From IMG/VR virus record IMGVR_UViG_3300017971_000130, positions 1 through 40,646 of that record: 40,646 nt of DNA. One strand, given 5' to 3'. Positions 6,701-39,803 of the stretch are shown here, one piece after another. The translations under genes and the position numbers were made by a program. Positions within the stretch are counted from its first letter, which is position 1. The number at the start of each line of letters is the position of its first letter. Under the pieces are notes generated by a model. That model saw only the letters and a program-made list of their open reading frames with translations. It was not told the DNA's origin and made no database searches. This DNA is from a virus. Lineage: Duplodnaviria > Caudoviricetes.

Positions 6701-6753
6701 CTTCAGATAGCCTAAACCGGATAAAAGGAGCTATAAAAAAAATAACAAAAAAT

Positions 6754-6810
6754 TAAAAAAATACTTTACTTTTGTTAATTTATTCCTTATATTTGTAATG
6801 AACGCAATAA
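6754..6810 (+). promoter_or_regulatory. Early-type promoter, copy 1 (57 bp, identical to 7188-7244)
   Basis: A-tract, TTTACT (6765-6770), 17 bp spacer, TATATT (6788-6793), then SD AAGGAG. Confidence 0.8.
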
Positions 6811-6825
6811 CTAAGGAGAAGCAAA

Positions 6826-7142: not shown

Positions 7143-7168
7143 AGCCGGCATTGTCCGGCTTTTTTTTT
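7143..7168 (+). terminator. Intrinsic terminator, copy 1
   Basis: AGCCGG-CATTGT-CCGGCT plus T-run; part of a 44-bp block (7123-7166) repeated at 7595-7638. Confidence 0.85.
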
Positions 7169-7187
7169 ACAAAAAAATTAAAAAAAA

Positions 7188-7244
7188 TAAAAAAATACTT
7201 TACTTTTGTTAATTTATTCCTTATATTTGTAATGAACGCAATAA
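7188..7244 (+). promoter_or_regulatory. Early-type promoter, copy 2
   Basis: Identical to 6754-6810; TTTACT at 7199-7204, TATATT at 7222-7227. Confidence 0.8.
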
Positions 7245-7261
7245 TTAAAAGGAGAACCAAA

Positions 7262-7653: not shown

Positions 7654-7753
7654 GAGCTCCAAATTCGCCATCTAAGAGCCGCAAATTTTCCGAGTCTTAT
7701 TATATAGCCCACCACGAGATCGTAGAATCAGGGCTATCCTGACAAGCCATTTT
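7654..7753 (+). repeat. Dispersed element, copy A (core 7691-7722)
   Basis: GAGCTCCAAATTCGCCAT...CGAGTCTTATTATATAGCCCACCACGAGATCGTAGAA...ATCCTGACAAGCCATTTT. Confidence 0.8.
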
Positions 7754-15236: not shown

Positions 15237-15310
15237 AAGATGTATAAGGCTATAAACAAAAATGATCCACTTTGCCCAGTAGTATCAGCAATCCATGTTT
15301 TCTTTTGTTC

Positions 15311-15365
15311 CGAGTGTAATTATATGGAGCAAACCGATCGTTTGTTAGAAGCCGAATTTGGAGCT
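15311..15365 (+). repeat. Dispersed element, copy D (core 15311-15340), upstream of the modification operon
   Basis: CGAGTGTAATTATATGGAGCAAACCGATCGTTTGTTAGAAGCCGAATTTGGAGCT, followed by promoter-like TTGATA-16-TATATT. Confidence 0.75.
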
Positions 15366-15427
15366 TTTAGAAGGTATTGATAAAATATATGATTTTCGTA
15401 TATTTATAAATAAAAAGGAATATTTAT

Positions 15428-15994
15428 ATGGATGAAGACAAATTAATTTTAGAGTTTGACGGCTACAAAATGTACCAATCAGCAAAATCATTAATGCTAA
15501 AACACAAAGATGGAACGGTAAAATGCTATGAAGGTTTAGACTATTTTGTAATAGTTAGGCTGATCCAACAAATTAAAAATTTAACTAATGACTTGAAGGA
15601 GTTTAAGATGAACAAAGACAGCAAGCAGTTTGAAAAAATTATGCTCGGCTTATTACCGGATGTCGAAAATGAGATTTTAAACATGATCGATTTACACAAA
15701 AAGAAATCTAAAGACTCAGGAAATAAATGGGCGCAAAATAAAAATACTTCTATTCTTGAAATGTTCTATGGTGGAATAAAAAGACCTTTTTCAAGACTGG
15801 AAAATTTTGCGGAAAAATGGCTGGTGGGAATATTCGAAAAAAATGTCGTGGCATCAGATAATGTTCTGGACTATTTAAGGGACATCGCAATTTATGCTAT
15901 TATGTTTTATGTGGTGATTAAAAATGACCACCTGAATTTAAACCGGATTTATTTCAAAGAATTAATTAAGGAGCATACTGATGAAAAAAAGTAA
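15428..15994 (+). CDS. Nucleotide-modification-associated domain 1 (Nmad1/DUF1599)-like protein; alternative internal start at 15608
   Basis: LHKKKSKDSGNKW...IKRPFSRLEN...DYLRDIAIYAIM resembles the KN.DYG..W / K..RL / DTL.DLANYA signature. Strong SD AAGGAG precedes ATG 15608. Confidence 0.65.
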   Translation: MDEDKLILEFDGYKMYQSAKSLMLKHKDGTVKCYEGLDYFVIVRLIQQIKNLTNDLKEFKMNKDSKQFEKIMLGLLPDVENEILNMIDLHKKKSKDSGNKWAQNKNTSILEMFYGGIKRPFSRLENFAEKWLVGIFEKNVVASDNVLDYLRDIAIYAIMFYVVIKNDHLNLNRIYFKELIKEHTDEKK

Positions 15995-16406
15995 TGTTTT
16001 GATTATTAATAAAAAAGAAGCTTGGTCTGAAATCAGTGATGGAGATGCATTGAAAACAATTCTAAATTATGAAGAAATCGAATTCACAGAAGCTTTTTTC
16101 TATGATCCCTTAATAACGGATTGCTCGCAGTATGACGCCATTTTCTTTATCACTCGATTTCGTGATCCATTGACTATGGTCGGACTTGGTCAAGCCACAA
16201 TGACTTATTCGGGCTTAATTATTACATTTGATATGAATCATACTGCTCCTAAATATGATCCCAGATTAACTGAATTAAGACATCATTTTCACAGAAAGAA
16301 TCCGTTGAAAAGATTTCTAAGGGATAGTGGCTTGTCAGTTATGGCTGGGATGACTCCATCAGAAGAGCAATATTTCAAGCAAAAGAGATCAAGGAGAAAT
16401 TCATGA
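15981..16406 (+). CDS. Divergent nucleoside 2-deoxyribosyltransferase/N-glycosidase-like protein
   Basis: YDAIFF...RDPLTMVGLGQA...LIITF aligns by eye with D.V.A...D.GT..E.G.A...PII; the catalytic Glu position appears to be Gly. Confidence 0.45.
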   Translation: MKKSNVLIINKKEAWSEISDGDALKTILNYEEIEFTEAFFYDPLITDCSQYDAIFFITRFRDPLTMVGLGQATMTYSGLIITFDMNHTAPKYDPRLTELRHHFHRKNPLKRFLRDSGLSVMAGMTPSEEQYFKQKRSRRNS

Positions 16407-17272
16407 AAGCTCGATTTGATTATATTATTCTTGGTGGTGGTTTAGCTGGTCTTGCTTTTGCTCAGAAATTTAAACATTTAAATCCGGTTATATTAGAATC
16501 AGGCTACCAATTCCAAAATAAACATTACCGGATATATTCCCATAAAAAGAATGAGCTAACAATGGAGGAGCCAGTGCCATTAACCACCAAGTATCATTCT
16601 GGTAGTGGGGATTTTAAAGCTGAGTATATTAAGAAGGTTTATAACAAAGATGGTGCAGTAGAATTATTCACCCATAAGAAAAAGCTCGATGAATTATACA
16701 ACTATAATCTTCAGGCTTTTTATTCCGATGTTAACCTATATGGAAATATGGAAGTTGAAAGAATTGATTTAAACTCTAAAGAGATAACTGGAAAGATTTT
16801 ACATTCTAATGAAAAATTCTTAATTGAATATGGGTATTTAATCAATACAATTCCATTACATAAATTCTGCAAATTAGTACGATATGATTTATTCCAAAGT
16901 TATAAGATATTCATCCAGTATTACCCTGTTGGTGTGAAAGTCCTACCGAATAATCAGTTTCATCCTGAGAATGAAATTATATTAGAATACTACTCTGATC
17001 CACTTATTCCTTTTTATCGAAGGCATATTGAGCAGAATAATATTTTTTATGAATATTGTATTAATAAGCCGATGGAAGAAAGCTTTACATTCATCCAGAA
17101 AATCGGTAAATTCCACAAGGTAGAAAAGGAGAAAATGGATAAACTTTTCCGTCAATTAAATCACTATGATGCTTATATGGTTGGAAGGTTTGCTTCATGG
17201 AATCCTGATTTTATAATTGAGCATATTTTAAATGAAACCGATCAACAAATTAAGGAGTTCAAACGTGGTTGA
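16403..17272 (+). CDS. FAD-dependent oxidoreductase, UDP-galactopyranose mutase (Glf)-like superfamily
   Basis: DYIILGGGLAGL...ILE dinucleotide-binding fold, YLINTIPL, C-terminal YMVGRFASW. Confidence 0.8.
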   Translation: MKARFDYIILGGGLAGLAFAQKFKHLNPVILESGYQFQNKHYRIYSHKKNELTMEEPVPLTTKYHSGSGDFKAEYIKKVYNKDGAVELFTHKKKLDELYNYNLQAFYSDVNLYGNMEVERIDLNSKEITGKILHSNEKFLIEYGYLINTIPLHKFCKLVRYDLFQSYKIFIQYYPVGVKVLPNNQFHPENEIILEYYSDPLIPFYRRHIEQNNIFYEYCINKPMEESFTFIQKIGKFHKVEKEKMDKLFRQLNHYDAYMVGRFASWNPDFIIEHILNETDQQIKEFKRG

Positions 17273-18029
17273 ATATAACAAAATACCAGACCAGAGAGAG
17301 CCAAGTGTAACTTTGCTTAGCCATACGGATGATCCGCTATATGCTATTGCTATGGCTGTGGAAGCATGGGAGTCTGATGACTTAATGCCTTTAGATAGGA
17401 AAGATCACACTAAGATTCTTAGGCACGTGAATAAGGCTCTTAGAGCTTATCACAGAACGGCTCTCGAATATGTATCTTTAACTTTCCTGATTAAGAATGT
17501 TAGTCGAGCTTTCCAACAGCAACTAACTCGTACACGGCTGGCATCCTATTCAATCCAGAGTTTAAGAGTAGTCAGTAAAAAAGGATTTGCTACAGGCGGT
17601 CACTATACGATGCCCCCGAATTTAGATGAGTTTAAAAAAGCTCAATTCCATGTAGCAATGTTACAGATTCAAGATCAATATGAGTATTTTATCGAAAAGG
17701 GATTTGATCCAGAAGATGCTCGTGGAATATTACCTTTGAATATCCATTCGGATATAACCATGACGATTAATCTAAATGCTCTATACCACATGACTGAGCA
17801 GAGATTGTGCTTGAATACCCAGCACGAATATCGGAATGTAGTGATGCGAATAGCTAAGGAAATTAGAACTAAATTGCACCCAGTTCTGGCTGACCGAATA
17901 TCTGCTCCATGCGTTAAAGTTAATAAATGCGCTGTAAAAGAATTTTGCGGAATTAAAGTATGGGAATTAAATCGAGAAGGTCAGGAACTGGCATATGAAA
18001 CTTATTCAAAAAATAGGAGCAAAAAATGA
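17265..18029 (+). CDS. thyX: Flavin-dependent thymidylate synthase homologue with a non-canonical motif
   Basis: HRTALEY, VSRAFQQQLTRTRLASYSIQSLR, EDARGILP, QRLC..TQHEYR. GTG start at 17265 after AAGGAG. Confidence 0.88.
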   Translation: MVEYNKIPDQREPSVTLLSHTDDPLYAIAMAVEAWESDDLMPLDRKDHTKILRHVNKALRAYHRTALEYVSLTFLIKNVSRAFQQQLTRTRLASYSIQSLRVVSKKGFATGGHYTMPPNLDEFKKAQFHVAMLQIQDQYEYFIEKGFDPEDARGILPLNIHSDITMTINLNALYHMTEQRLCLNTQHEYRNVVMRIAKEIRTKLHPVLADRISAPCVKVNKCAVKEFCGIKVWELNREGQELAYETYSKNRSKK

Positions 18030-18583
18030 CACCGAGAGAATATCAAAAAGCCACTTCATTAACAGCCATCTATCCTAAAGATAATGATTATGATTTAATT
18101 TATTTAGCCAACGGAATTATGAGTGAAGTTGGAGAAATAATGGGGAAAAATAAAAAGATTATCAGAGATGATAATTGCCAATATTCACCAGAGAAAATTG
18201 AAGCTATTAGCAAGGAGATTGGAGATGTACTTTGGTACATGTCAGAAATTGCTTCTGCTTTCGGGATTGATTTTAACTTTGTTGCTGGTAATAATTTCCA
18301 GCAGCTTGAAACTACTAAATTAACACTCCAGCATACAATGATATCTCTTGGCTATAATACTGGATATTTACTAAGGCATATGGATGATATAATCACCCAT
18401 GGTTATGTCCGTACTGCCTATGCTGAATATATTCGTAATACATTGATGAATATTTATGTCGACTTAATGAGTTTAGCGATTAATTTTGATTTATTCATGG
18501 TTGATATAGCAGAAGAAAATGTTGCTAAATTACAAGACCGGAAAGAAAGAGATGCCATCAAAGGAGATGGTGATGAAAGATAA
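18026..18583 (+). CDS. mazG: MazG-like NTP pyrophosphohydrolase with an internal degenerate repeat
   Basis: EYQ...TAIYP, SEVGE, KEIGDVLWY, C-terminal NVAKLQDRKERDAIKGDGDER. Confidence 0.88.
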   Translation: MTPREYQKATSLTAIYPKDNDYDLIYLANGIMSEVGEIMGKNKKIIRDDNCQYSPEKIEAISKEIGDVLWYMSEIASAFGIDFNFVAGNNFQQLETTKLTLQHTMISLGYNTGYLLRHMDDIITHGYVRTAYAEYIRNTLMNIYVDLMSLAINFDLFMVDIAEENVAKLQDRKERDAIKGDGDER

Positions 18584-19511
18584 AATTAATGTAACAATAA
18601 TAATCCCAGTATATAAAGATTTAGACATGATGAAGCAATGTGTAAAAAGTCTGTTTGATAATATAGGAGAAAGTAAATACAATCTAAATGTTTTTATCTA
18701 CTCTCAAGGCTATACAACTGAAGAAAAAAATGAGTTGAATGATGCTATTGGATTCCCAGAGCCTTGTATACATGTAGGAGTTGATAAATACCCAGAGCCG
18801 ATTAAATTCTCAAGAATAATATCGGACGCAATAATTGAATCGAATAATTATTTTCATTCTGATTTCTTTATTGGTGTTGATTCTGATTTCCTATTTAAAA
18901 AAGGGAGCTTTAAAAAATATGATCAGGCAATCGATTATCTACTATTGAATGATCAATGTGGAGTTGTCTGGTGCTCTTCTTTTCTTGGCGGCTCTCAACA
19001 AGGCGATGATATAATCCCTTTTTGGGGTGGGTTCCCATGGAGAGATCGTGGATTGGTATTTAGGAATATGGAGCAAATATTCCCATTAGATTTCGCAGGA
19101 TTTATCCATAATGATTTAAGAGATATTACAGGATTATTTGATGAGCAAATGAGCATTTGGACTATTGCTAAATATGGCTTTTATCCGGCTAAGCAAATGA
19201 ACAATCCAACTCTCCATAGAAGAAACACTGCTTTAAATGCTAAAAAAAGGGAAGGTGGGATGGCGGCTTTGGATAGCGACCATTATGTAATAGTTGGTGA
19301 AGTAAATAATTATCTTAACAATTTACTTGGCACTAATTATGATGTGAATAGGATTGTAGAATTACAGCAATTAAATATGTTTCAGCAAGGCGATTTCCAA
19401 ATTCCAAATTCTTTTACTCAATCGTATATTGATGCTGCCAATAAGTTATTTGGTTACTGCCAATTAGAACGTGAACCAGTAGTAAGATATTCAAAATACT
19501 TTAGGAAATAA
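18573..19511 (+). CDS. GT-A fold (family 2-like) glycosyltransferase
   Basis: VTIIIPVYK...CVKSL N-terminus and DxD motif FIGVDSD; ATG at 18573 after AAGGAG. Confidence 0.78.
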   Translation: MKDKINVTIIIPVYKDLDMMKQCVKSLFDNIGESKYNLNVFIYSQGYTTEEKNELNDAIGFPEPCIHVGVDKYPEPIKFSRIISDAIIESNNYFHSDFFIGVDSDFLFKKGSFKKYDQAIDYLLLNDQCGVVWCSSFLGGSQQGDDIIPFWGGFPWRDRGLVFRNMEQIFPLDFAGFIHNDLRDITGLFDEQMSIWTIAKYGFYPAKQMNNPTLHRRNTALNAKKREGGMAALDSDHYVIVGEVNNYLNNLLGTNYDVNRIVELQQLNMFQQGDFQIPNSFTQSYIDAANKLFGYCQLEREPVVRYSKYFRK

Positions 19512-19512
19512 A

Positions 19513-22500
19513 ATGGAATTTACCAATCTTCACGTACATACTACATACTCTTTTTTAGATGGATACGGAACGCCTAAGCAATATGCTGAGAGATTAAAAG
19601 AGCTTGGGCAAGATAAAATAGGATTAACAGATCATGGCTCCACGTGGGCGCATATCCCCTTCTATTTCCAATTAAAGGAAAAAGGAATAAAAGCGATATT
19701 GGGTTGCGAATTTTATTATGATATCGATGTTGAAGAAAAGAATAAACAAAGATATCATTTAACCGTAATTGCTAAGAATAATGAAGGACTTCATAACCTT
19801 TATAAGCTAATGACTTTTGCCTATAAAGAAGGGATGTATTATAAACCACGCATTGATAACAATATACTATTCCAGCATCAAAAGGGCTTGGTTGTTTTAT
19901 CTGGATGTATGGGTGATGGTTTTCCAGTTAGGCATGCTGAAAGTGATCCTGAATTAACACTACACTGGATGAAAATAATGGATCGGAATATTGATGATTT
20001 TTATATCGAAGTCAGTCCATTTTTCGAGAGGCAAGTTGAACTTGAGTCGATTATTAAATTGGCTGATCAAGCAGAAATTCCTATCGCCATGACTTCAGAC
20101 ACACACTTCCCAGCTCCTAAAGATCATCAAGCTCAAGACATTATGCTATCTATTGGTATGAAGCAAGATTATTGGAGCCAAAGCCGAATAAAACTATGGG
20201 ATCATTTATTTCTACTGGAAAGCGAAAGAGCCTCAAATTTGGCTTTTAAGCTCTTTAAAGAAAGAGCCATGGAATTTATCGGGAATACGAATAAAATAGC
20301 ACAGGTGGCGAATGCTGGCTTTGAACCGGCAAAATTTCTAAGATACGGGAACACGCCTAAAGAAAGCCGTGAATTATTCGAGCAATGGATTGATGATGGG
20401 ATTAAAAAAAGATTTGGGCATAATTATACGGCTGATAAGAAGGATCGAATAGAGTATGAAAAAGGGATTATAATTGAAAAAGATTTTGTTGATTATTTCC
20501 TTATAATTTCCGATCTTGTAAAGTGGGCTAAATATACCAAAGGAATGTTAGTTGGTGCTGCTCGTGGTTCTGCTGCTGGGAGTCTAATTGCTTATGTATT
20601 AGATATCACAGAAGTTAATCCGCTGAACCATGGCTTAATGTTCGAAAGATTTATTGATCATTATAGAACTGATCCACCGGATATTGATATTGATTTCCCT
20701 CATAAAAGAAGGGATGAAATTTACTATTATTTGGAGAAGAAATATGGCAGGGATCATGTCGCACTTTTAGGTACAATATCTTATTTCAAAGGAAAGAATT
20801 CAATCTGGGATATTGGTAGAATATTCAACTTGCCGAGAAAAGACATTGAATCTCTTGCTAAAAATATTATTGAGCGCAGTTCTGGTGATAGCAGGGCTGA
20901 CTATTGCATTGAAGATTCCATTTCAGAAATTGAAGAAGTGGCTACAATGATGGATCGTCATAGCGAATTTAAACTTGCTACAAAAATCGAAGGTCAAGCC
21001 AGACAGTCGGGCATCCATGCTGCGGCAATAATAATAAGCGAAGATGAGCTTGAGAAGTATGGAAGCTTCATGCCTTATGAGGATAAAAAGCTACTAACAA
21101 TTGATAAAAAATACGCTGAGGATTTAAACCTATTAAAAGTCGATGCGTTAGGATTAAAGCAACTAACTGTAATTGAGAGTGTTTTAAACCTAATCGGAAA
21201 AGACAATACATGGCTTTACAATATCCCGTTAGATGATCCCAAAGCATTTAAGATTTTAAATGATCATCTCTTTTCCGGTATATTCCAATTTGAAGGTGCG
21301 GCTCTGAAGGCTGTTAGCAAGCAAAGTTATCCGGACAATTTCGATTCTATGCATGAGATTTCAGCATTAGCAAGACCGGGCACTTTACATTCCGGCATGA
21401 CTACAAAATACTTAAATCGCAGAGCTTTCGTAAAGAAGTTTAAAAGAAAAACAATGGAGAAACCGACCTATATCCACCAATCTCTTGAAGAGATAACAGA
21501 AGAGACATTAGGGATTGTAATTTATCAGGAGCAAGTTATCAAGATCATGCGAGAGATCGGAAAAATGAGCTGGAAAGATACGAAAGAAATCAGAACTCTT
21601 ATTTCCAAATCTAAAGGCGTGGAATTTTTCAATACCTTCTTAGAAACCTTCACCAAAGGAGCAAAGGAAAATGGTCTCAATGAATACGAGATTGATGATC
21701 TGTGGAATGGCATCTGTACATTCGGTTCATGGGCTTTTAATAAATCCCATTCAGTTTCTTATGGCTATATATCTTATTGGACTCTTTATTTAAAAGCAAA
21801 CTACCCTGCCGAGTTTATAATTTCTACTTTACAAGAAGAAGGAGATGAAGATTCAATTAAACTCTTATTAAAAGAATGGCTTGAACACTTCGATGGCAAA
21901 TTCGTTCTGCTCGATCCTAATAAATCAGAGAAAACATTCTCATTAAAAGACGGCATCATATATGGTGGCTTTTCCAATATTAAGGGAATAGGAGAAAAGC
22001 AGGCAGATAAAATAATTGAAGCCAGAGACAAGGTAAATTCGATCCAGCAATTTAAGAAATTAGTTGGAGCTAAAAACTTTGAATTGTTAAGAAAGTTTAA
22101 TGCGTTGCCTACTTCTTTTAAAGTAGAGCAAAGTGATTTATTCGCCCAACCTATAAACGAGCGAGAGCCAGATGCTAAAATCCCGTATGAATTTGCTCAA
22201 TGGGCTGATTTCTATCCTATTGGCGATGACTATGATGAGTATTATAAGGAGAAAAATTTCAAGTATATACGAGATGTTGATGATGATACAACCACTGTGC
22301 GATTAATTGGAAAGATAAAACTGATAAATTTAAGGAGCATTAATGAGTTGACAGTTCAGAAAAAAGCTGAGCATGAAAAAAGAAATTACCGGAATGCAGA
22401 TTTGGATAAATTCTTTAACTTAGTTATTGAGGATGATACTGGGACTATATTTGCTGGTATTAATCGATTCCGGTATGCTGATTTTAAAGATGAAATTTTT

Positions 22501-22602
22501 AAAGCAAAAGTCGGGGGCATTATAGCTTTAGAAGGCGACAAGTTAGATGGTTTTATGAAAGTTCAAATTACTAAAATGAAGGTGCTCAAATATGCCGAAT
22601 AA
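19513..22602 (+). CDS. dnaE: DNA polymerase III alpha subunit (family C)
   Basis: PHP motifs LHVHTTYSFLDG and TDHG; RGSAAGSLIAY; PDIDIDF; LKVDALGL; FNKSH; HhH IKGIG; C-terminal OB fold. Confidence 0.96.
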   Translation: MEFTNLHVHTTYSFLDGYGTPKQYAERLKELGQDKIGLTDHGSTWAHIPFYFQLKEKGIKAILGCEFYYDIDVEEKNKQRYHLTVIAKNNEGLHNLYKLMTFAYKEGMYYKPRIDNNILFQHQKGLVVLSGCMGDGFPVRHAESDPELTLHWMKIMDRNIDDFYIEVSPFFERQVELESIIKLADQAEIPIAMTSDTHFPAPKDHQAQDIMLSIGMKQDYWSQSRIKLWDHLFLLESERASNLAFKLFKERAMEFIGNTNKIAQVANAGFEPAKFLRYGNTPKESRELFEQWIDDGIKKRFGHNYTADKKDRIEYEKGIIIEKDFVDYFLIISDLVKWAKYTKGMLVGAARGSAAGSLIAYVLDITEVNPLNHGLMFERFIDHYRTDPPDIDIDFPHKRRDEIYYYLEKKYGRDHVALLGTISYFKGKNSIWDIGRIFNLPRKDIESLAKNIIERSSGDSRADYCIEDSISEIEEVATMMDRHSEFKLATKIEGQARQSGIHAAAIIISEDELEKYGSFMPYEDKKLLTIDKKYAEDLNLLKVDALGLKQLTVIESVLNLIGKDNTWLYNIPLDDPKAFKILNDHLFSGIFQFEGAALKAVSKQSYPDNFDSMHEISALARPGTLHSGMTTKYLNRRAFVKKFKRKTMEKPTYIHQSLEEITEETLGIVIYQEQVIKIMREIGKMSWKDTKEIRTLISKSKGVEFFNTFLETFTKGAKENGLNEYEIDDLWNGICTFGSWAFNKSHSVSYGYISYWTLYLKANYPAEFIISTLQEEGDEDSIKLLLKEWLEHFDGKFVLLDPNKSEKTFSLKDGIIYGGFSNIKGIGEKQADKIIEARDKVNSIQQFKKLVGAKNFELLRKFNALPTSFKVEQSDLFAQPINEREPDAKIPYEFAQWADFYPIGDDYDEYYKEKNFKYIRDVDDDTTTVRLIGKIKLINLRSINELTVQKKAEHEKRNYRNADLDKFFNLVIEDDTGTIFAGINRFRYADFKDEIFKAKVGGIIALEGDKLDGFMKVQITKMKVLKYAE

Positions 22603-22963
22603 AGAAGGAGATTTACTGGAAGGTGAAGCAAGAGAAATGATATTGGCTACATTCCGAAAACATTTTGGAGTTAAAAATGTTGACTTCATTAATGTGCATG
22701 GTTCTAAATTTATGAAAAAAGGTTTACCAGATTTGATGATCCTAATAAAAGATCATATGCCTTATTGGATTGAAATAAAACGCAATTTTCATGATACACC
22801 AGAAAAACTTCAAAAATTTAGAGTAAAGCAATATAGTCGTATGGGATTTATCACTGGTTTTTCTGATGGCAGATTCATTAAATTTAATTGGTCAGATGAT
22901 ATTAAGCATGAAATAGATAACTTTATTAAAATAACAAAAAGGAGCTGTAATGGAAAAGCATAA
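22592..22963 (+). CDS. VRR-NUC (PD-(D/E)xK) nuclease / Holliday junction resolvase
   Basis: KGLPDLMIL...WIEIKR...LQ. Confidence 0.82.
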   Translation: MPNKEGDLLEGEAREMILATFRKHFGVKNVDFINVHGSKFMKKGLPDLMILIKDHMPYWIEIKRNFHDTPEKLQKFRVKQYSRMGFITGFSDGRFIKFNWSDDIKHEIDNFIKITKRSCNGKA

Positions 22964-23309
22964 TGCCAACATGAAAATTAATGAATCGATGGAACAGAAG
23001 GAAATAATGAAAAAGGCGAAACAGTTAAATGGAGATTTTAACAAAATAGGAATAGCCACTCAATTTTCTGTTGTTAGTGATGAAGTCGGAAAGCATAAGA
23101 ATGTAATCACGATGTCTATTCCCAAAACCGGATTCACTATGGCTATGATAATTACGGATATGGATAATCCAAATCTATTCGCCTTATTAAAGGATTCTAT
23201 ATTCAAATATTTAACTACTCATATTGAATTAGTGGGCAAGGAAATGAAGCTCTGTAAGAAGGTTTTCAATAACATTAAAAATCCTGCTGGATTAATCCTT
23301 CCGAGCTAA
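22950..23309 (+). CDS. Hypothetical protein (119 aa)
   Basis: SD AAGGAG; last gene of the operon. Confidence 0.7.
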   Translation: MEKHNANMKINESMEQKEIMKKAKQLNGDFNKIGIATQFSVVSDEVGKHKNVITMSIPKTGFTMAMIITDMDNPNLFALLKDSIFKYLTTHIELVGKEMKLCKKVFNNIKNPAGLILPS

Positions 23310-23312
23310 ATT

Positions 23313-23362
23313 CAAAAAAAATAAAAAAAACTTTACTTTTGGTTTTTTTGTCCGTATATTTG
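23313..23362 (+). promoter_or_regulatory. Early-type promoter, copy 3
   Basis: A-tract, TTTACT (23332-23337), 17 bp spacer, TATATT (23355-23360); near-identical to 24174-24225. Confidence 0.8.
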
Positions 23363-23400
23363 ATATGACAACAATAACTAACCAAATGAAGGAGTCAGAG

Positions 23401-24120
23401 ATGACTAAGCAAGAATTAAGCTATTTAGAAACTGAAGACTTACAGGTGCTGGCAAAAGCAAATGGAGTCGACATCAATGGTAAGAGCCGCAGTGATGCTG
23501 AAGATGCTATCCTTAAAGCAGTAGAAGCAAAAGCTTCAACTAAAAAAGCGAAGAAAGAATCAGCACCAAAGGTACGTGTGGCTGACACTCTATCTGATCT
23601 GCGTAAATTCGGGAAAGAGCTTGGAGTTGAAACTATTGATCGTGTAAAGGGTGATCCTGCTGTTCCTTTTGCGATTTCGTTTGTAATGCCTAATGGAATT
23701 CGTGCCGCTGTATTCCCCAGAGTTGATGGCAATATGAAGATTGCCTACCGGACAGGATTGTATATGGTTAATAATGAAACTTTCTATCCTTATGGAACTG
23801 CCACTACTGCCCTTAAAGCGATCTTTAAAGATGCTGTTGCTGAGAACGCTGTAGCTGAGCAGAAGGCTAAAGAAGAAGCTGAGAAGAAAGAAGCTGAGAA
23901 GAAAGCTAAAGAGATTGCGAAGAAAGCTAAGGCAGCTGCGAAAGAAGCTGAGAAGAAAGCAAAGAAAGAAGAAGCAGACCGGAAAAAAGCTGAAGCCAAA
24001 GCTAAAAAAGAAGAAGAAGCAAAGGCAAAGAAAGAAGAAGCAGACCGGAAAAAAGCTGAAGCCAAAGCTAAAAAAGAGAAAGCGGCACCTGAAGCAGACG
24101 GTCAAACAGAAAAGAAATAA
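23401..24120 (+). CDS. Rho-N/HeH-like domain protein with Lys/Ala/Glu-rich repeat tail
   Basis: SD AAGGAG, ATG at 23401; LQVLAKANGVDINGKSRSDAEDAIL; about 90 aa KAE tail. Confidence 0.7.
   Translation: MTKQELSYLETEDLQVLAKANGVDINGKSRSDAEDAILKAVEAKASTKKAKKESAPKVRVADTLSDLRKFGKELGVETIDRVKGDPAVPFAISFVMPNGIRAAVFPRVDGNMKIAYRTGLYMVNNETFYPYGTATTALKAIFKDAVAENAVAEQKAKEEAEKKEAEKKAKEIAKKAKAAAKEAEKKAKKEEADRKKAEAKAKKEEEAKAKKEEADRKKAEAKAKKEKAAPEADGQTEKK
23959..24077 (+). repeat. Intragenic 53-bp exact duplication (66-bp period)
   Basis: 23959-24011 equals 24025-24077, encoding AKKEEADRKKAEAKAKK twice. Confidence 0.9.
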
Positions 24121-24140: not shown

Positions 24141-24168
24141 AGCCAGTCCATTTGGGCTGGCTTTTTTT
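24141..24168 (+). terminator. Intrinsic terminator
   Basis: AGCCAGTCC-ATTT-GGGCTGGCT plus T-run. Confidence 0.85.
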
Positions 24169-24173
24169 ATTCC

Positions 24174-24225
24174 CAAAAAAAAATAAAAAAAAACTTTACT
24201 TTTGGTTTTTTTGTCCGTATATTTG
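24174..24225 (+). promoter_or_regulatory. Early-type promoter, copy 4
   Basis: TTTACT (24194-24199), 18 bp spacer, TATATT (24218-24223). Confidence 0.78.
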
Positions 24226-24263
24226 TAGTGACAATAACAATCTACCAAATTAAGGAGTACAAA

Positions 24264-25153: not shown

Positions 25154-25265
25154 ATTCGCCATCAGACGCCCAAATCCACCATTTGCCAGCCGTTCTACTT
25201 TCCGAGTCATATTATATAGGTGATATCGAGATCGTAGAACTGGAGCCATCCTGACAAGCCATTTT
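25154..25265 (+). repeat. Dispersed element, copy B (core 25203-25234)
   Basis: TTTCCGAGTCATATTATATAGGTGATATCGAGATCGTAGAA...ATCCTGACAAGCCATTTT; highly similar to copy A. Confidence 0.8.
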
Positions 25266-28021: not shown

Positions 28022-30841
28022 TTATAAGTCCTCATAATATTGTTTTTGCTGATCGTAATTATATTGAATTATATCTGCTACAAATCCAGATGGTAAAGCA
28101 GAAGGTCTGCCGTCATTACCGTCAAAATGATACATTTGAGCCATACCGATTTTTCCTATAATCCAAGCATTCTCATTGCCATTTGCTCCAAGATTAAGTG
28201 AATCATCATTTGTTGTATCGCCTGTAGCTGTTAGAGCAGTTCCCGATCCTTGTTCAACTCCATTAACAAAACATCTTAAAAGCGTATTCCCATTATCACG
28301 GACAAGGCAAATATAATTCCAGCCAGCAGTTATTGTTCCATAGTCAATATCCTCATTTGTTGTTCCCCTGACCCTTACTTGTATTTGACCAGATGTACTG
28401 CCATAAGCAATCTCATATCCAGTTCCAGAGCCATGAGCATCTCTATTCCCGAATATCATTTTATTATTATAATAAGTTGCCCAATCCTTTGTATCATCCC
28501 AGTGAACCCAAACACCAAGAATGAAATCAATATTAGCATCAGGTTCAAATATATCTTCCTTGCCAAAATCAACGAAATCATCCACGCCATCAAGATTTAA
28601 AGAAAATGGATGCTCGAGATCGTTTGTTTCGAGTGAGTTTTTTATAAGACCTTCATAGCCATTGCCCAAATACTCTAAATATATTTCGCCAATTTCAAGA
28701 TAAGCGGCAGTACCACCAGTACTTGATTGAAACCTTAATCGAGCTAATCCTGTGTGATAATGTACTTCATCTACTTCTATAGCATCACCAGTATTGGCAG
28801 GCTGATTTGAGTCTGCATATCCAAAATTATCTAAATACATTGTCCTACTTGATCTGTACTTATATCTAACACGATAAAAACCTGCGCCAGTATCACTGAA
28901 AATTGGGCAATTTAAATAATGATAACTTCCACTTGCATCAGTTTCAGACCTTTGTGCATTGTAAGTAAATCCATTCCCAGTCACCAATGAGTATGTTTTG
29001 ACTGTTGCATTGCTTGTTCCTTGCCAACCATCACCTACTCCGTCAGTATCAGTATCAACAATGTTTTCAGTATAACCTACATTTGATATCTCAACTTCAG
29101 TCCATTCTTGACCACCATTAGAATAATCTTCAAGATAATGATCAGCTCTGCCATTATCAATCTGTGAAGCATTTAGGACTTTTTGAACCTTAATGTATTC
29201 AAGATAAAAATAGTTGTTGCTTGTTAGTGGAAGAAATTCAATATAATTACCAGTTTTCGTTGCTTCGTTAAAGTATACTGAGTACGTATCAGCATCAGTA
29301 GGATGTGCAATATAGCCAGTAGGTACGTTGTATAATCGATTAGTTGCACTGCCATTATTTGTGTATAATATTTTAAAAGTAAGCTTGTATAATTGATCAT
29401 TTTCAAGAGTCGCTGGAAATTTAGTATAGCCGCCATTGCGAGAAATAGGTTGAGCAAATATATCAGCACTATATCTTGGAGCAAGATTTGTTGCATAAGT
29501 ACCGACAGCGAAAGTTGCTCCTTTGGAAAGATTATAAGCCATTCCAACTTCACTTGCTGTCATTACTTTGCCAATATGGATCATAACTTCATACACACTG
29601 CCAGCTAAATATCCGCCATCAACATAAGGGCGTCTGCCTATTGTAAAAAATCTACCTGAAGATATTTGGTCGGTTACTGTCGATATATCAGCACTGGCAA
29701 CTTGAACTCCGTTTAAATATAAATACATCATATTAGCTGTCCGGTCAACTGTGCCAACAACATGGCAAAATGTATTAGCAGGAATGATACCAGCTGAGCT
29801 ACTTGCGGTAACTTGATTGGCTGAATCATCACGTATTACAAACGATAAACTCTCGTCATAACCAATTTTTATATCCCATCCTGGAGTTCCATCGCCACAG
29901 CCCATCAATGATCTTGTGTCATTGCCTTGAGTGGGTTCTTTAAATGAAATAGCCACGCTGAAATCATCGCTTAATGGATCAATAGCATTTGTATCAGTGT
30001 TATCGAGATACAGCCTGTCATCAACTCCATCAAATTGCAAGCCATTACCATCTTTATAGATCGGTGAACCAGAAACAAGTTCATCTTCAAAATCTGTGCT
30101 CATCCCTACTGATATTAAATGCCTCCCATTAGCAGATAAATCTTCATTTATTTCAAGCCCCGTCTGCTCGGTTTCATGGTATGTATCATCGAATATCCAA
30201 TGGGCTTTTGTGTACTGTGGGTAATGAGCATTTACATACATGTGATCTATACTCATTACATGAGCTGTAATACCTGCATTTGGGTGGAGTATTCTTATAC
30301 TAACATTTCCAGATATTGTATGTTCAGGTTCAAGCCCGAAAGCCGCATCAGCCAAATCTGTCCGAGCTTCCCAAATTCCGATGTCATCCCAGCTTGTACC
30401 GTTATGAGCCTGTATTGTTAAGTCATGGCTTGAATTATGTGATCCTGTAAGGTGAAAGTATAAACCTATGTAATTCGTAGTAATCCCAAAGTCAAAGTCA
30501 ATATCCATGCCCGGTGTTGCTGATTGAGTTTCTCGGATATCAAAGGTATTGCCATTAAGAGCTGTTGTATCTGACAGTGCTCCATCATCCACAGAGCCTT
30601 CAGTTAAAGTATAGGCATCGGCAGTTTCATCAATAGGGTCTCCACCCTCAAATTGATCCATTGTATAATCATGGAAATCACCGTTTGGTATAATATTATC
30701 GCCGAGTGATTCAGCCATAGAGCCACCAAGCAATTGCATTGCTGGATTTGTAGCAAGCACTAAACCTTCTGTAGCAAATAATGGTGATACTTCGCTATCT
30801 TTTGAGTGAAATGGGTGCCCATGACCACGACCATTCATCAT
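28022..30841 (-). CDS. Large virion fibre/adhesin with two LamG (ConA-like) domains (939 aa)
   Basis: LQFDGVDD...HVVGTVDR...LYLNGVQV and LNLDGVDD...WNYICLVRD...CFVNGVE; other jelly-roll segments (IIPNGDF). Confidence 0.82.
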   Translation of the reverse strand: MMNGRGHGHPFHSKDSEVSPLFATEGLVLATNPAMQLLGGSMAESLGDNIIPNGDFHDYTMDQFEGGDPIDETADAYTLTEGSVDDGALSDTTALNGNTFDIRETQSATPGMDIDFDFGITTNYIGLYFHLTGSHNSSHDLTIQAHNGTSWDDIGIWEARTDLADAAFGLEPEHTISGNVSIRILHPNAGITAHVMSIDHMYVNAHYPQYTKAHWIFDDTYHETEQTGLEINEDLSANGRHLISVGMSTDFEDELVSGSPIYKDGNGLQFDGVDDRLYLDNTDTNAIDPLSDDFSVAISFKEPTQGNDTRSLMGCGDGTPGWDIKIGYDESLSFVIRDDSANQVTASSSAGIIPANTFCHVVGTVDRTANMMYLYLNGVQVASADISTVTDQISSGRFFTIGRRPYVDGGYLAGSVYEVMIHIGKVMTASEVGMAYNLSKGATFAVGTYATNLAPRYSADIFAQPISRNGGYTKFPATLENDQLYKLTFKILYTNNGSATNRLYNVPTGYIAHPTDADTYSVYFNEATKTGNYIEFLPLTSNNYFYLEYIKVQKVLNASQIDNGRADHYLEDYSNGGQEWTEVEISNVGYTENIVDTDTDGVGDGWQGTSNATVKTYSLVTGNGFTYNAQRSETDASGSYHYLNCPIFSDTGAGFYRVRYKYRSSRTMYLDNFGYADSNQPANTGDAIEVDEVHYHTGLARLRFQSSTGGTAAYLEIGEIYLEYLGNGYEGLIKNSLETNDLEHPFSLNLDGVDDFVDFGKEDIFEPDANIDFILGVWVHWDDTKDWATYYNNKMIFGNRDAHGSGTGYEIAYGSTSGQIQVRVRGTTNEDIDYGTITAGWNYICLVRDNGNTLLRCFVNGVEQGSGTALTATGDTTNDDSLNLGANGNENAWIIGKIGMAQMYHFDGNDGRPSALPSGFVADIIQYNYDQQKQYYEDL

Positions 30842-35686: not shown

Positions 35687-36055
35687 TTAAGTTGCTGGAG
35701 TTTCAGTAACTGCTCCAGTAAATCTACCTTCAACTGTCATTTTCACGCCATCGTCAATTGCGGCTGAATTTTTAATTGATAGCAGAATAATATTGCCGGA
35801 ATATGTAAAGCCTTCGAAATCCAAAGAACCAGCATACACTTCACCCAGCGGTGGATCAGCTTGATTCACATCTTTCCACATTTCTACTGTTAATGGACGT
35901 TCTTGCCTGCCCGCAAGATATTCTTTTTCATTGCCAGTCGTATCAGTATCTGTCATATCTACTTCAGACAGGTTTTTATCGAGCGACAAATTTGTCACCC
36001 CATAAGTGACGGAATTGTACACAAACTTTCCGGTAGTTAAAACTTGCTTTGCCAT
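35687..36055 (-). CDS. Tail tube protein paralogue 3 (122 aa; likely the major one)
   Basis: GVTNLSL...EVDMTDTDTTGNEKEYLAG...YSG...IDDGVKMTVEGRFTG; strongest SD (AAGGAG) of the four. Confidence 0.82.
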   Translation of the reverse strand: MAKQVLTTGKFVYNSVTYGVTNLSLDKNLSEVDMTDTDTTGNEKEYLAGRQERPLTVEMWKDVNQADPPLGEVYAGSLDFEGFTYSGNIILLSIKNSAAIDDGVKMTVEGRFTGAVTETPAT

Positions 36056-36076: not shown

Positions 36077-36835
36077 TTAAGCAATTTCTTTTACACTTGC
36101 AGCTGTTACTGCTCCTCTGAATGAACCTACACCAAATTGAACAACTAAGCCTGTTGTGCCAACATCACCAAAAACTAAAAATGTTCCAACTTCACCAGCT
36201 GGTGTTGTTATTATTAAAGCTCCACAAATAGCAATTACACTACCAGAAGTACATGAAGATATTCTAACCAAATACATATATTCCGTTGATGATGTTGGTG
36301 TGAAATCATTTGTAACCGATGCTGCTGCAGATACTCCTGATCCAACAACAAGCTCCCCACCAGTTATCTCACAATCAACTCCGGTCGGATTTGAAATAGT
36401 CCAGCCAGTATCTGAATTGAAATTTGGTGATGTTAATTCTTCAGCACCAATAGTCTTTTGTGTTTCAGTCATTCCACCAGTAAATCTGCCTTCAATAGTC
36501 ATTTTGATTCCATCATCAATAGCAACAGAATTTTTAATGGAAAGAAAAATAGCTGAACCTGAATATTCATAGCCTTCAAAATCAATCCTAACATCTGAAA
36601 TTATAGAGCCTATTGGTGGATCAGCTTCATCAACTTGTTTCCAAATTTCTACAGTGAATGGAACTTCTTGCCTACTTGCTTGATATTCTTTTTCATCACC
36701 TGTTGTTAACGTATCTGTTAAATCAACTTCATTTAAATTTTTATCAAGTGATAAATTCGTAACGCCATAAGCCTTATAGAGATTAGTGTCAATCTGATAG
36801 GCAAAAAGCCCAGTTGCTAAAATTTGTTTTGACAT
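36077..36835 (-). CDS. Tail tube protein paralogue 2 with C-terminal jelly-roll/CBM-like domain (252 aa)
   Basis: N-terminal half is very similar to 35687-36055; the extension begins GAEELTSPNFNSDTGW. Confidence 0.78.
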   Translation of the reverse strand: MSKQILATGLFAYQIDTNLYKAYGVTNLSLDKNLNEVDLTDTLTTGDEKEYQASRQEVPFTVEIWKQVDEADPPIGSIISDVRIDFEGYEYSGSAIFLSIKNSVAIDDGIKMTIEGRFTGGMTETQKTIGAEELTSPNFNSDTGWTISNPTGVDCEITGGELVVGSGVSAAASVTNDFTPTSSTEYMYLVRISSCTSGSVIAICGALIITTPAGEVGTFLVFGDVGTTGLVVQFGVGSFRGAVTAASVKEIA

Positions 36836-38037: not shown

Positions 38038-38369
38038 TATGCCTTGCCTTTTAAAATTTTGATTATTTTCTTTCTATTCCCTCTTAATGCTGGTCTTAAA
38101 TATGGTCTTGCCGCCAGCCCTCTTTGAGTCCCGAATTCAATATGAGGTGCGTATTCAACATTGGTTCCAATAGTAACAGTAATTGCTCTTCCACCTTTTT
38201 CAACAAATGGAGCAGACACTTCGATTGATTTTCTCAAATTCCCAGTCTTAACTGGAACCAAACTTTTGGCTGAAGTTTGAACAACCACTCCAGCTTTCAT
38301 AACTCTTCTAACCAGTATCCTATTTAATTTCGTTAGGAATTTGTCGCCATACCATTTGTTACTTTTCAT
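38037..38369 (-). CDS. HK97 gp10-like tail completion protein
   Basis: AKSLVPVKTGNLRKSI, GTNVEYAPHIEFGT, ARPYLRPA. Confidence 0.92.
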   Translation of the reverse strand: MKSNKWYGDKFLTKLNRILVRRVMKAGVVVQTSAKSLVPVKTGNLRKSIEVSAPFVEKGGRAITVTIGTNVEYAPHIEFGTQRGLAARPYLRPALRGNRKKIIKILKGKA

Positions 38370-38431
38370 TTTTTATACCATTTTTCGTATATTTATACGA
38401 AATCCCATATTTTCAATAAAATCTACAGACA

Positions 38432-38485
38432 CGCCCAAATTTAGCTTCTAACAAACGATCTCAGTCACCCATATAATTACACTCG
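38432..38485 (-). repeat. Dispersed element, copy E (core 38456-38485), upstream of the tail genes
   Basis: Minus strand reads CGAGTGTAATTATATGGGTGACTGAGATCGTTTGTTAGAAGCTAAATTTGGGCG; nearly matches copy D. Confidence 0.78.
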
Positions 38486-38629
38486 CAAAAAAAGATAACA
38501 TGAGTTGTTGATATGACTCATGTAAACGGTGGATACATAACCTAAACAATATCGTTTTATCAGTAACCTAAATTTTCAATGACCGTATAAAAACCGTATG
38601 CGATTTTCATTAATTATCTAAATTTTATA

Positions 38630-38803
38630 AATTTTCTAACGTACCAGTATAGCCTTTTCCTAACGTCTGATAAGTCTACTTTTCCTAACGTCTGATAAGT
38701 CTACTTTTCCTAACGTCTGATAAGTCTACTTTTCCTAACGTCTGATAAGTCTACTTTTCCTAACTGTTTTCAAAGAGCCTTTTCCTAACTTTCTCAAGTT
38801 AGC
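38630..38803. repeat. 25-bp tandem array (4 perfect units plus 3 degenerate units)
   Basis: CTTTTCCTAACGTCTGATAAGTCTA at 38654, 38679, 38704 and 38729; CTTTTCCTAAC recurs in phase at 38754 and 38779; a degenerate unit lies near 38630. Confidence 0.93.
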
Positions 38804-39734: not shown

Positions 39735-39803
39735 AAGCTCCAAATTCGCCATGTAAGCTCTTAAAATTTTTCGAGCCTTATTATATGGCTTTAGTTGAGA
39801 TCG
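39735..39803 (+). repeat. Dispersed element, copy C (core 39772-39803)
   Basis: AGCTCCAAATTCGCCATGTAAG...TTTTCGAGCCTTATTATATGGCTTTAGTTGAGATCG. Confidence 0.78.

What the first reader, a model, noticed from the sequence alone, without database searches (positions are those of the whole stretch)
15428..22602. Candidate new DNA base-modification pathway: Nmad1-like, NDT-like, flavoenzyme, variant ThyX, MazG, glycosyltransferase and DnaE
Seen: seven overlapping or abutting co-oriented genes behind their own promoter-like site, ending in the phage polymerase. Established: phage hypermodification loci typically combine a thymidylate-synthase-family enzyme making a modified dNMP, a pyrophosphatase removing the competing dNTP, a dedicated polymerase and a DNA glycosyltransferase (T4 glucosyl-hmC is the paradigm). 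The characterised examples I know use ThyA-fold enzymes and family A or B polymerases. Inference: here a ThyX-fold enzyme and a family C polymerase fill those roles, with a Glf-like flavoenzyme and a GT-A enzyme making a sugar-decorated pyrimidine. I found no dNMP kinase, so a host kinase or one of the unknown ORFs would be needed.
Basis: partly seen in the sequence, partly recalled or inferred. Interest (0 to 1): 0.88.

Follow-up and report, generated by a model that had tools for sequence, protein, structure and literature searches.

The report
Phage sugar-thymidine genes, Pbunavirus type
Beside its DNA polymerase gene, this uncultured phage carries an altered thymine-making enzyme and a sugar-mutase-like protein, a pair also found in Pseudomonas therapy phages reported to have sugar-decorated thymine, so the genes likely make a sugar-bearing form of the DNA letter T, though nothing here shows that this phage's own DNA is modified.

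Summary
The seven genes are real and lie in a circular 40.5-kb tailed-phage genome. The conserved core is a UDP-galactopyranose-mutase-like flavoprotein plus a ThyX lacking catalytic Tyr91, beside DnaE. The flavoprotein accompanies this ThyX in 20 of 24 contig groups fetched by ThyX alone (22 with an iterated profile) and 0 of 66 canonical-ThyX loci. The same pair is in Pbunavirus F8 and 14-1, whose DNA is reported to carry sugar-modified thymidine (362 and 390 u) made by unknown genes. The glycosyltransferase and NDT-like gene are not conserved; relatives carry methyltransferases, a sulfotransferase, reductases or other glycosyltransferases instead. Best reading (0.4): the ThyX variant couples a sugar to C5 of dUMP, as SP-15's pentyl-uracil suggests. 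Rivals: hydroxymethyl handle plus O-glycosylation (0.25), ordinary dTMP supply (0.25). Against: the genome still avoids many restriction sites and lacks the TG-sparing pattern seen in F8; it keeps the folate-stacking His; SP-15 lacks the flavoprotein. This scan reported the module three times before on other DNA; my ten paper searches found no characterisation of it.

The parts
15278..15422 (+). Leader repeated (70%) upstream of the gene block that starts at 38369 on the - strand; candidate phage promoter/regulatory element
   Evidence: sigma-70 scan not above chance
15428..15994 (+). Nmad1/DUF1599-like all-alpha protein (residues 83-166) with an N-terminal extension; likely nucleotide pyrophosphatase fold
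   Evidence: hhalign vs 8 locus homologs P 79%, E 1.6e-5; phrog_1485 E 0.0014
15981..16406 (+). Orphan, flavodoxin/Rossmann-like fold at low confidence; NDT assignment inconclusive
16403..17272 (+). UDP-galactopyranose-mutase-like flavoprotein, 289 aa, much shorter than UGM; homolog of Pbunavirus F8 gp65 (phrog_4828)
17232..18029 (+). ThyX-fold enzyme; keeps equivalents of T. maritima H53, E58, Q75, R78, R80, S88, R90, R147, R174; H79 is Thr, Y91 is Val; C-terminal Cys cluster invariant in 58 homologs
18026..18583 (+). MazG-like NTP pyrophosphatase
18573..19511 (+). GT-A (GT2-like) glycosyltransferase, DSD at the DxD position; first ATG at 18519, probable start 18573; accessory, no close homolog
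19513..22602 (+). DnaE-type (family C) replicative polymerase with PHP domain and PDIDID motif
22592..22963 (+). Endonuclease (phrog_93), coupled to dnaE; part of the replication module

Best explanation
The cluster is the Pbunavirus-type flavoprotein-ThyX-DnaE module, and it likely makes a thymidine substitute in which a sugar-derived chain is joined to carbon 5 of uracil. Shown: gene content, folds, residue changes, co-occurrence, presence in F8/14-1. Inferred steps: (1) the UGM-like flavoprotein opens or activates a sugar (or sugar nucleotide) on flavin N5; (2) the Tyr91-less ThyX adds the sugar carbon, not a methylene, to C5 of dUMP, then reduces it or leaves it to cyclise; (3) host kinases raise it to the triphosphate; (4) MazG and the Nmad1-like protein trim dUTP or dTTP; (5) DnaE inserts it at a fraction of T positions; (6) in this phage the GT-A adds a further sugar to a side-chain hydroxyl, where relatives add a methyl or sulfate or reduce a ketone.
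For: Flavoprotein beside the Tyr-less ThyX in 20 of 24 contig groups fetched by ThyX alone (22 of 24 with an iterated, partly circular profile) and in 0 of 66 Tyr-bearing ThyX loci. 32 of 33 Tyr-less rows, including this one, F8 and Wifcevirus Bas100, fall on one branch (SH-aLRT 96, quick tree). Y91A slows T. maritima ThyX over 100-fold and Y91 is proposed to expel the carbinolamine water (PMC8316439). F8 and 14-1 carry T derivatives of 362 and 390 u at about a quarter of T (PMC12191111); these masses equal tetrahydroxypentyl-dU and dU + hexose - water. They extend the series 330 (SP-15, Carin-5) and 346 (YerA41), and those three phages all encode a divergent ThyX-fold protein; SP-15's base is made before DNA synthesis. 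The flavoprotein is fused to a dUTPase_2-like domain in L013, L014, L015, L017, tying it to nucleotide pools. Module loci spare TG-containing 6-mer palindromes more than canonical-ThyX loci (median +0.118, n 28, vs -0.030, n 46; p 3e-4).
Against: No chemical data for this phage. Its genome shows no TG sparing (+0.025, p 0.39; 19 of 46 controls as high) and strongly avoids CTAG (0 vs 66 expected), GGCC (0/70), TGCA (55/147), CCWGG (3/43). It keeps H74 (= H53, folate-stacking, role recalled), which F8 has lost, so a one-carbon donor remains possible. The masses are equally those of O-ethers of hydroxymethyl-dU, and the paper reads them as thymidine derivatives in a TG context, which suits a step on DNA better than a pool nucleotide. 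SP-15, YerA41 and Carin-5 have no detectable flavoprotein homolog. This phage has no detected SDR, HAD phosphatase or kinase. The co-occurrence may reflect a single origin. TC palindromes also differ between the sets (p 0.003), so the TG signal is not unique.
Confidence: 0.4

Rival explanations
1. One reading: the ThyX variant releases 5-hydroxymethyl-dUMP (or another hydroxyl handle), DnaE inserts it, and a furanose made by the UGM-like enzyme is O-linked on DNA by the GT-A.
For: H53 equivalent kept; 390 u equals an hmdU pentoside; Rhizobium phage RL38J1 has a proposed UGM + thymidylate-synthase homolog + GT pathway (PMC13326640); GT2 genes recur inside the module in L017, L047 and, as a distant homolog of this GT, L052.
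Against: F8 and 14-1 have no annotated glycosyltransferase in the 36 kb examined yet are modified, and three quarters of their T is plain T, not hmdU; a GT was seen in only 3 of 24 groups by tool (5 with two read by eye; not every ORF was scanned); the flavoprotein is about 180 residues shorter than its best UGM match.
Confidence: 0.25
2. Ordinary dTTP supply: the variant still makes dTMP, perhaps with the flavoprotein as redox partner that replaces the lost Tyr/His functions; MazG removes dUTP; the GT acts on virion proteins or the host surface; DNA is unmodified.
For: Most dUMP-binding residues and H53 kept; strong restriction-site avoidance and no TG sparing in this genome; GT is a singleton; it is the phage's only thymidylate synthase homolog.
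Against: Leaves the Pbunavirus modification without candidate genes; does not explain why methyl-, sulfo-, glycosyl-transferases and SDRs keep appearing between these genes or why canonical ThyX never has the partner (0 of 66).
Confidence: 0.25
3. The modification is installed after replication on T (or on a ThyX-made precursor) in a sequence context, by the flavoprotein acting on DNA; or the target base is C.
For: TG context inferred for F8 from ten restriction enzymes; the short flavoprotein has room for a larger substrate (inference).
Against: Fusion to and clustering with nucleotide-pool enzymes; R174 equivalent, which reads uracil (role recalled), is invariant; no known chemistry for a UGM fold on a thymine methyl.
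Confidence: 0.1

Closest known systems
Pbunavirus F8/14-1 and Wifcevirus replication module (F8 gp65 flavoprotein, gp59 ThyX, gp57 HAD fusion, gp55 DnaE, gp49 MazG)
   Same: Homologous flavoprotein (profile E 5e-27; both hit phrog_4828), RTR and Tyr-less ThyX on the same branch, DnaE, MazG, SNF2-type helicase, Pam3 gp33/gp34-like genes.
   Different: ThyX only about 29-32% identical, H53 kept here and lost there; this phage has a GT-A and an orphan but no HAD or separate exonuclease; modification measured only for F8/14-1; genes untested in either.
Actinophage clusters D/DG/DV/EF/BN 'oxidoreductase-phosphatase-FabG-DnaE-MazG-ThyX' block (Xenia2, Nocardia P3.1, Streptomyces phiRKBJ001)
   Same: Their 'oxidoreductase' matches the flavoprotein profile (P3.1 E 1e-16, phiRKBJ001 E 6e-28); ThyX lacks Tyr91.
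   Different: They add SDR, HAD and methyltransferase; no base analysis found.
SP-15 / YerA41 / Carin-5 5-(hydroxypentyl)uracil systems
   Same: Partial T replacement by a C5 side chain that is then glycosylated; divergent ThyX-fold gene, beside an SDR in SP-15 and near one in Carin-5.
   Different: Their ThyX-like protein is about 400 aa and very remote; family A polymerase; no flavoprotein homolog detected.
Glycosylated 5-hydroxycytosine of RB69, DLP3, RL38J1 (PMC13326640) and T4 glucosyl-hmC
   Same: Thymidylate-synthase-type enzyme, sugar mutase and glycosyltransferases in one cluster.
   Different: ThyA fold, cytosine target, full replacement, canonical UGM (Foldseek 1603 to 4rpl in their table); here ThyX fold, a truncated UGM-like protein and DnaE.
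Canonical ThyX (and PolB)
   Same: Fold (Z 17.3) and most dUMP/FAD residues.
   Different: RHR is RTR and the conserved Tyr after Arg90 is Val.

Membership tests
Canonical ThyX (dTMP synthase) | ThyX fold | tested here: met
   AF2 model pLDDT 89.5; Z 17.3 to Mtb and H. pylori ThyX, next non-ThyX 3.9
Canonical ThyX (dTMP synthase) | RHRx7S motif | tested here: not met
   RTR invariant in 58 of 58 clade members; Ser kept
Canonical ThyX (dTMP synthase) | Tyr91 after Arg90 | tested here: not met
   Val113; Tyr in all control loci
Canonical ThyX (dTMP synthase) | dUMP-binding Gln75, Arg78, Arg90, Arg147, Arg174 and His53 | tested here: met
   Q97, R100, R112, R164, R191, H74; roles recalled
Canonical ThyX (dTMP synthase) | Makes dTMP / complements thyA | not testable with these tools
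   needs assay
UDP-galactopyranose mutase (Glf) | FAD-binding fold closest to UGM, GxGxxG and GRxxxW | tested here: met
UDP-galactopyranose mutase (Glf) | Substrate Arg in YF...PFYR (A. fumigatus R327) | tested here: met
   Y196 and R206 at least 90% conserved in 96 sequences and aligned to the motif
UDP-galactopyranose mutase (Glf) | Full-size substrate (uridine)-binding part and diphosphate tyrosines | tested here: not met
   289 aa vs 363-473 aa chains; UGM 'GYP' and 'WRYE' tyrosines align to K236 and P268; that the missing part is the helical uridine-binding domain is inferred, residue roles recalled
UDP-galactopyranose mutase (Glf) | Pyranose-furanose mutase activity | not testable with these tools
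   needs assay
Pbunavirus-type flavoprotein-ThyX module | UGM-like flavoprotein + Tyr-less ThyX + DnaE + all-alpha pyrophosphatase | tested here: met
Pbunavirus-type flavoprotein-ThyX module | Modified T in virion DNA | not testable with these tools
   only contigs are served for the two holding runs
Pbunavirus-type flavoprotein-ThyX module | Sparing of TG-containing restriction palindromes (indirect sign, defined here) | tested here: not met
   window p 0.39, F8 p 0.006, close relatives L003 p 0.011, L011 p 0.035, L009 p 0.76
T4/RB69/RL38J1 glycosyl-cytosine pathways | ThyA-fold dCMP-modifying enzyme | tested here: not met
   no ThyA family hit among 51 ORFs
Nucleoside 2-deoxyribosyltransferase | Family match and catalytic Glu | tested here: inconclusive
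   no Pfam hit; weak resemblance to SP-15 gp127 second domain, E 6.5
DNA glycosyltransferase | Homology to a characterised DNA GT | tested here: inconclusive
   no PHROG hit, no PDB sequence hit for the five-member profile; L017 GT weakly hits beta-glucosyl-HMC-alpha-glucosyltransferase, E 5e-4

The most novel reading that the evidence does not exclude
A branch of ThyX has given up one-carbon transfer and, with a truncated UGM-like partner, forges a C-C bond between a sugar and C5 of dUMP. This would be the missing entry step for C5-polyol thymidines (330, 346, 362, 390 u) in Pbunavirus and, by a sister enzyme, SP-15-like phages, with each phage capping the chain by its own glycosyl-, methyl- or sulfotransferase.
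Probability: 0.3. Interest if true: 0.88.

Novelty: new variant of a known kind. Interest (0 to 1): 0.62.

Why it matters
The genes for the thymidine modification of Pbunavirus, a main group of Pseudomonas therapy phages, are unknown, and so is the origin of SP-15's pentyl chain. This gives two named candidate enzymes, a one-residue marker (loss of ThyX Tyr91) that predicts the module, and a chemical hypothesis that can be tested in culturable F8 or 14-1. All characterised viral nucleotide-modifying synthases in the papers read are ThyA-fold; a ThyX that transfers a sugar would be new flavin chemistry. For this particular phage the gain is smaller: one more member with a private glycosyltransferase.

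Tried and rejected
Sigma-70 scan: not above chance. tblastn of the flavoprotein and of 15981-16403 against cultured phages: no match; the Pbunavirus link needed profiles. ThyX clade in GTDB genome contigs: 57 pattern matches, none confirmed. SP-15, YerA41, Carin-5: no flavoprotein homolog, so the idea that they use the same pair was dropped. L042 has a Tyr-less ThyX and no flavoprotein in its record (56% complete); L044 could not be searched. A TA-sparing signal in the window (p 0.009 of 7 tests) was rejected: 11 of 46 controls are as high. Complex prediction ThyX x2 + flavoprotein: no answer, score 0.00; no weight either way. Sequencing runs: no RNA holder listed; two DNA holders, both possibly the source, as contigs only; one contig spans 13000-23352 without differences. 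Iyer et al. 2013 (Nmad definitions) is not held; its content is recalled only. Two 336-339 aa ORFs in L012 and one in L048 look GT-B-like by eye but hit no Pfam or PHROG family. The careful tree did not finish; the quick tree kept the motif columns and placed L021 on a long branch outside the group.
Full report
Setting. The window is a circular tailed-phage genome: a 123-nt overlap joins its ends inside the major capsid gene, with terminase, portal, tape measure, amidase and holin genes. The seven ORFs are present as stated and the run continues past dnaE into an endonuclease and one more gene. The sigma-70-like site is not above chance, but the leader 15278-15422 has a 70% copy before another gene block and shares a core motif with three more intergenic places.

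Flavoprotein. 16403-17272 has 9 close relatives and 347 at E 0.001 among 1.84 billion representatives. A 96-row profile matches eukaryote-type UDP-galactopyranose mutases best (E 2e-17). The AF2 model (pLDDT 90.9) matches them by Foldseek and VIA-align (Z 19.1, 280 residues, rmsd 3.6; next 15.6). It keeps the FAD motifs and the PFYR arginine but is 289 aa against 363-473 and lacks two tyrosines. It is UGM-like, not a member.

ThyX. 17232-18029 heads a clade of 58 proteins (bits 293 or more, next 213) with invariant RTR and IQSxR. The fold is ThyX. Against T. maritima the dUMP arginines, Gln75, Ser88 and His53 are kept, His79 is Thr and Tyr91 is Val. PMC8316439 (passages) proposes Tyr91 as the acid that expels water from the flavin carbinolamine and reports a more than 100-fold loss for Y91A.

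Conservation. Viral contigs fetched by ThyX patterns alone collapse to 24 groups with a Tyr-less ThyX. The flavoprotein profile hits 20 at E 0.001 (one contig had contributed to the profile) and 22 after iteration (partly circular). The misses are L042 (none; record 56% complete) and L044 (contig edge). It hits 0 of 66 Tyr-bearing loci: 58 from a canonical-motif scan, 6 and 2 cultured phages; 10 of them are under 12 kb and the other 56 reduce to 46 distinct. DnaE lies in the held DNA of 21 of 24 and of 13 of 66. A quick tree puts 32 of 33 Tyr-less rows on one branch (SH-aLRT 96), so the link may be one ancestral event. The genes between differ: class I methyltransferases (L009, L011, L014, L044, L052, also L006), a sulfotransferase (L001), radical SAM (L015), SDRs (L019, L047, L048, L051, L052), HAD or HD phosphatases, GT2 (L017, L047), DUF1599, dUTPase_2 domains, the last fused to the flavoprotein in four loci (selected ORFs, not all). 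The window's GT has no close homolog and one distant one in module locus L052 (E 1e-6). 15981-16406 has none.

Link to measured DNA. F8, 14-1 and DL60 carry the flavoprotein (E 1e-27 range; F8 gp65 is phrog_4828, which the window's protein also hits), an RTR, Tyr-less ThyX, MazG and DnaE. 362 phage records match F8 gp65. PMC12191111 (preprint; passages; spectra not visible) reports T derivatives of 362 and 390 u replacing about a quarter of T, a TG context inferred from ten enzymes, and no known genes. F8 and 14-1 differ in product although gp65 is 97% and ThyX 94% identical, which no reading here explains.

Chemistry (inference). 362 u fits tetrahydroxypentyl-dU or an hmdU tetritol ether; 390 u fits dU + hexose - water or an hmdU pentoside. 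SP-15 has 5-(4,5-dihydroxypentyl)uracil made before DNA synthesis and two Thy1 genes (PMC5977210, passages; the 1978 paper on ribose label seen as a title only). Carin-5 and YerA41 have linkers of 88 and 104 Da (PMC12686479, PMC13697223, passages). All three encode a remote ThyX-fold protein of about 400 aa but no detected flavoprotein. UGM and ThyX both work through flavin N5 adducts (UGM recalled; ThyX). A sugar iminium needs no water expulsion and needs room, which would explain the loss of Tyr91. I put this at 0.4; the hydroxymethyl route, with precedent in RL38J1 (PMC13326640, abstract, passages, sections 28 and 29), at 0.25.

Against. A test on restriction palindromes recovers the TG pattern in F8 (p 0.006) and across module loci (28 vs 46, p 3e-4; 21 uncultured only, p 0.009; not tree-corrected), but not in this genome (p 0.39), which avoids CTAG, GGCC, CGCG, TGCA, GGWCC and CCWGG. 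SP-15 shows no TG pattern either, yet spares T-containing 4-mers, which this genome does not. So protection here is at most partial, and an unmodified genome (0.25) stays open. His53 is kept. No kinase, SDR or HAD gene was detected; F8 also has no annotated kinase in the region read.

Prior art. Ten searches found no paper assigning a function to this pair; the library lacks most subscription journals and I read no supplements. PMC11385102 (first part) lists the same block in actinophages without function; PMC7824862, PMC8989533 and PMC11990801 (passages) add nothing on it. The scan noted the module three times on other DNA.

Verdict: real, conserved core, likely a thymidine-modification pathway of the Pbunavirus type (about 0.7 summed over mechanisms), unproven for this phage; new variant of a known kind; interest 0.62.

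Noticed in passing
window 6734-6814, 7168-7248, 23301-23381, 24164-24244: Four copies of an 81-nt AT-rich element with TTTACT-17-TATATT spacing just before small early-type genes; likely the phage's strong promoter.
   Followed up: no
window 15309-15345, 38374-38518, 7687-7753, 25199-25265, 39736-39789: Shared intergenic motif (CGAG..ATTATAT.G..GATCG) at five unit boundaries in mixed orientation.
   Followed up: partly
window 38654-38778: Tandem 25-nt repeat, about 4.4 copies, in an intergenic gap; candidate origin iterons.
   Followed up: no
window 23365-24120; L023:20279-21172: Lys/Glu/Ala-rich protein; F8 gp66 is of like composition, and acidic or Lys-rich ORFs precede the flavoprotein in many module loci.
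   Followed up: no
L001:9058-9849: Sulfotransferase inside the module, between ThyX and the exonuclease; would imply a sulfated DNA base.
   Followed up: partly
L132:9730-12911 (SP-15 gp127-gp130): Tandem NDT, SDR and remote ThyX-fold gene lie together; published as a hypothetical hmdUMP synthase, a candidate for the pentyl-chain step.
   Followed up: partly
window 35700-36006 vs 36462-36771: Internal duplication (about 75%) between adjacent tail-region genes at 762-765 nt spacing.
   Followed up: no
window 28022-30841: 939-aa tail protein with two LamG/concanavalin-like domains; probable receptor-binding protein.
   Followed up: no
whole window: CTAG, GGCC, CGCG, GGWCC and CGWCG are absent, pointing to a host rich in type II restriction systems.
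   Followed up: partly
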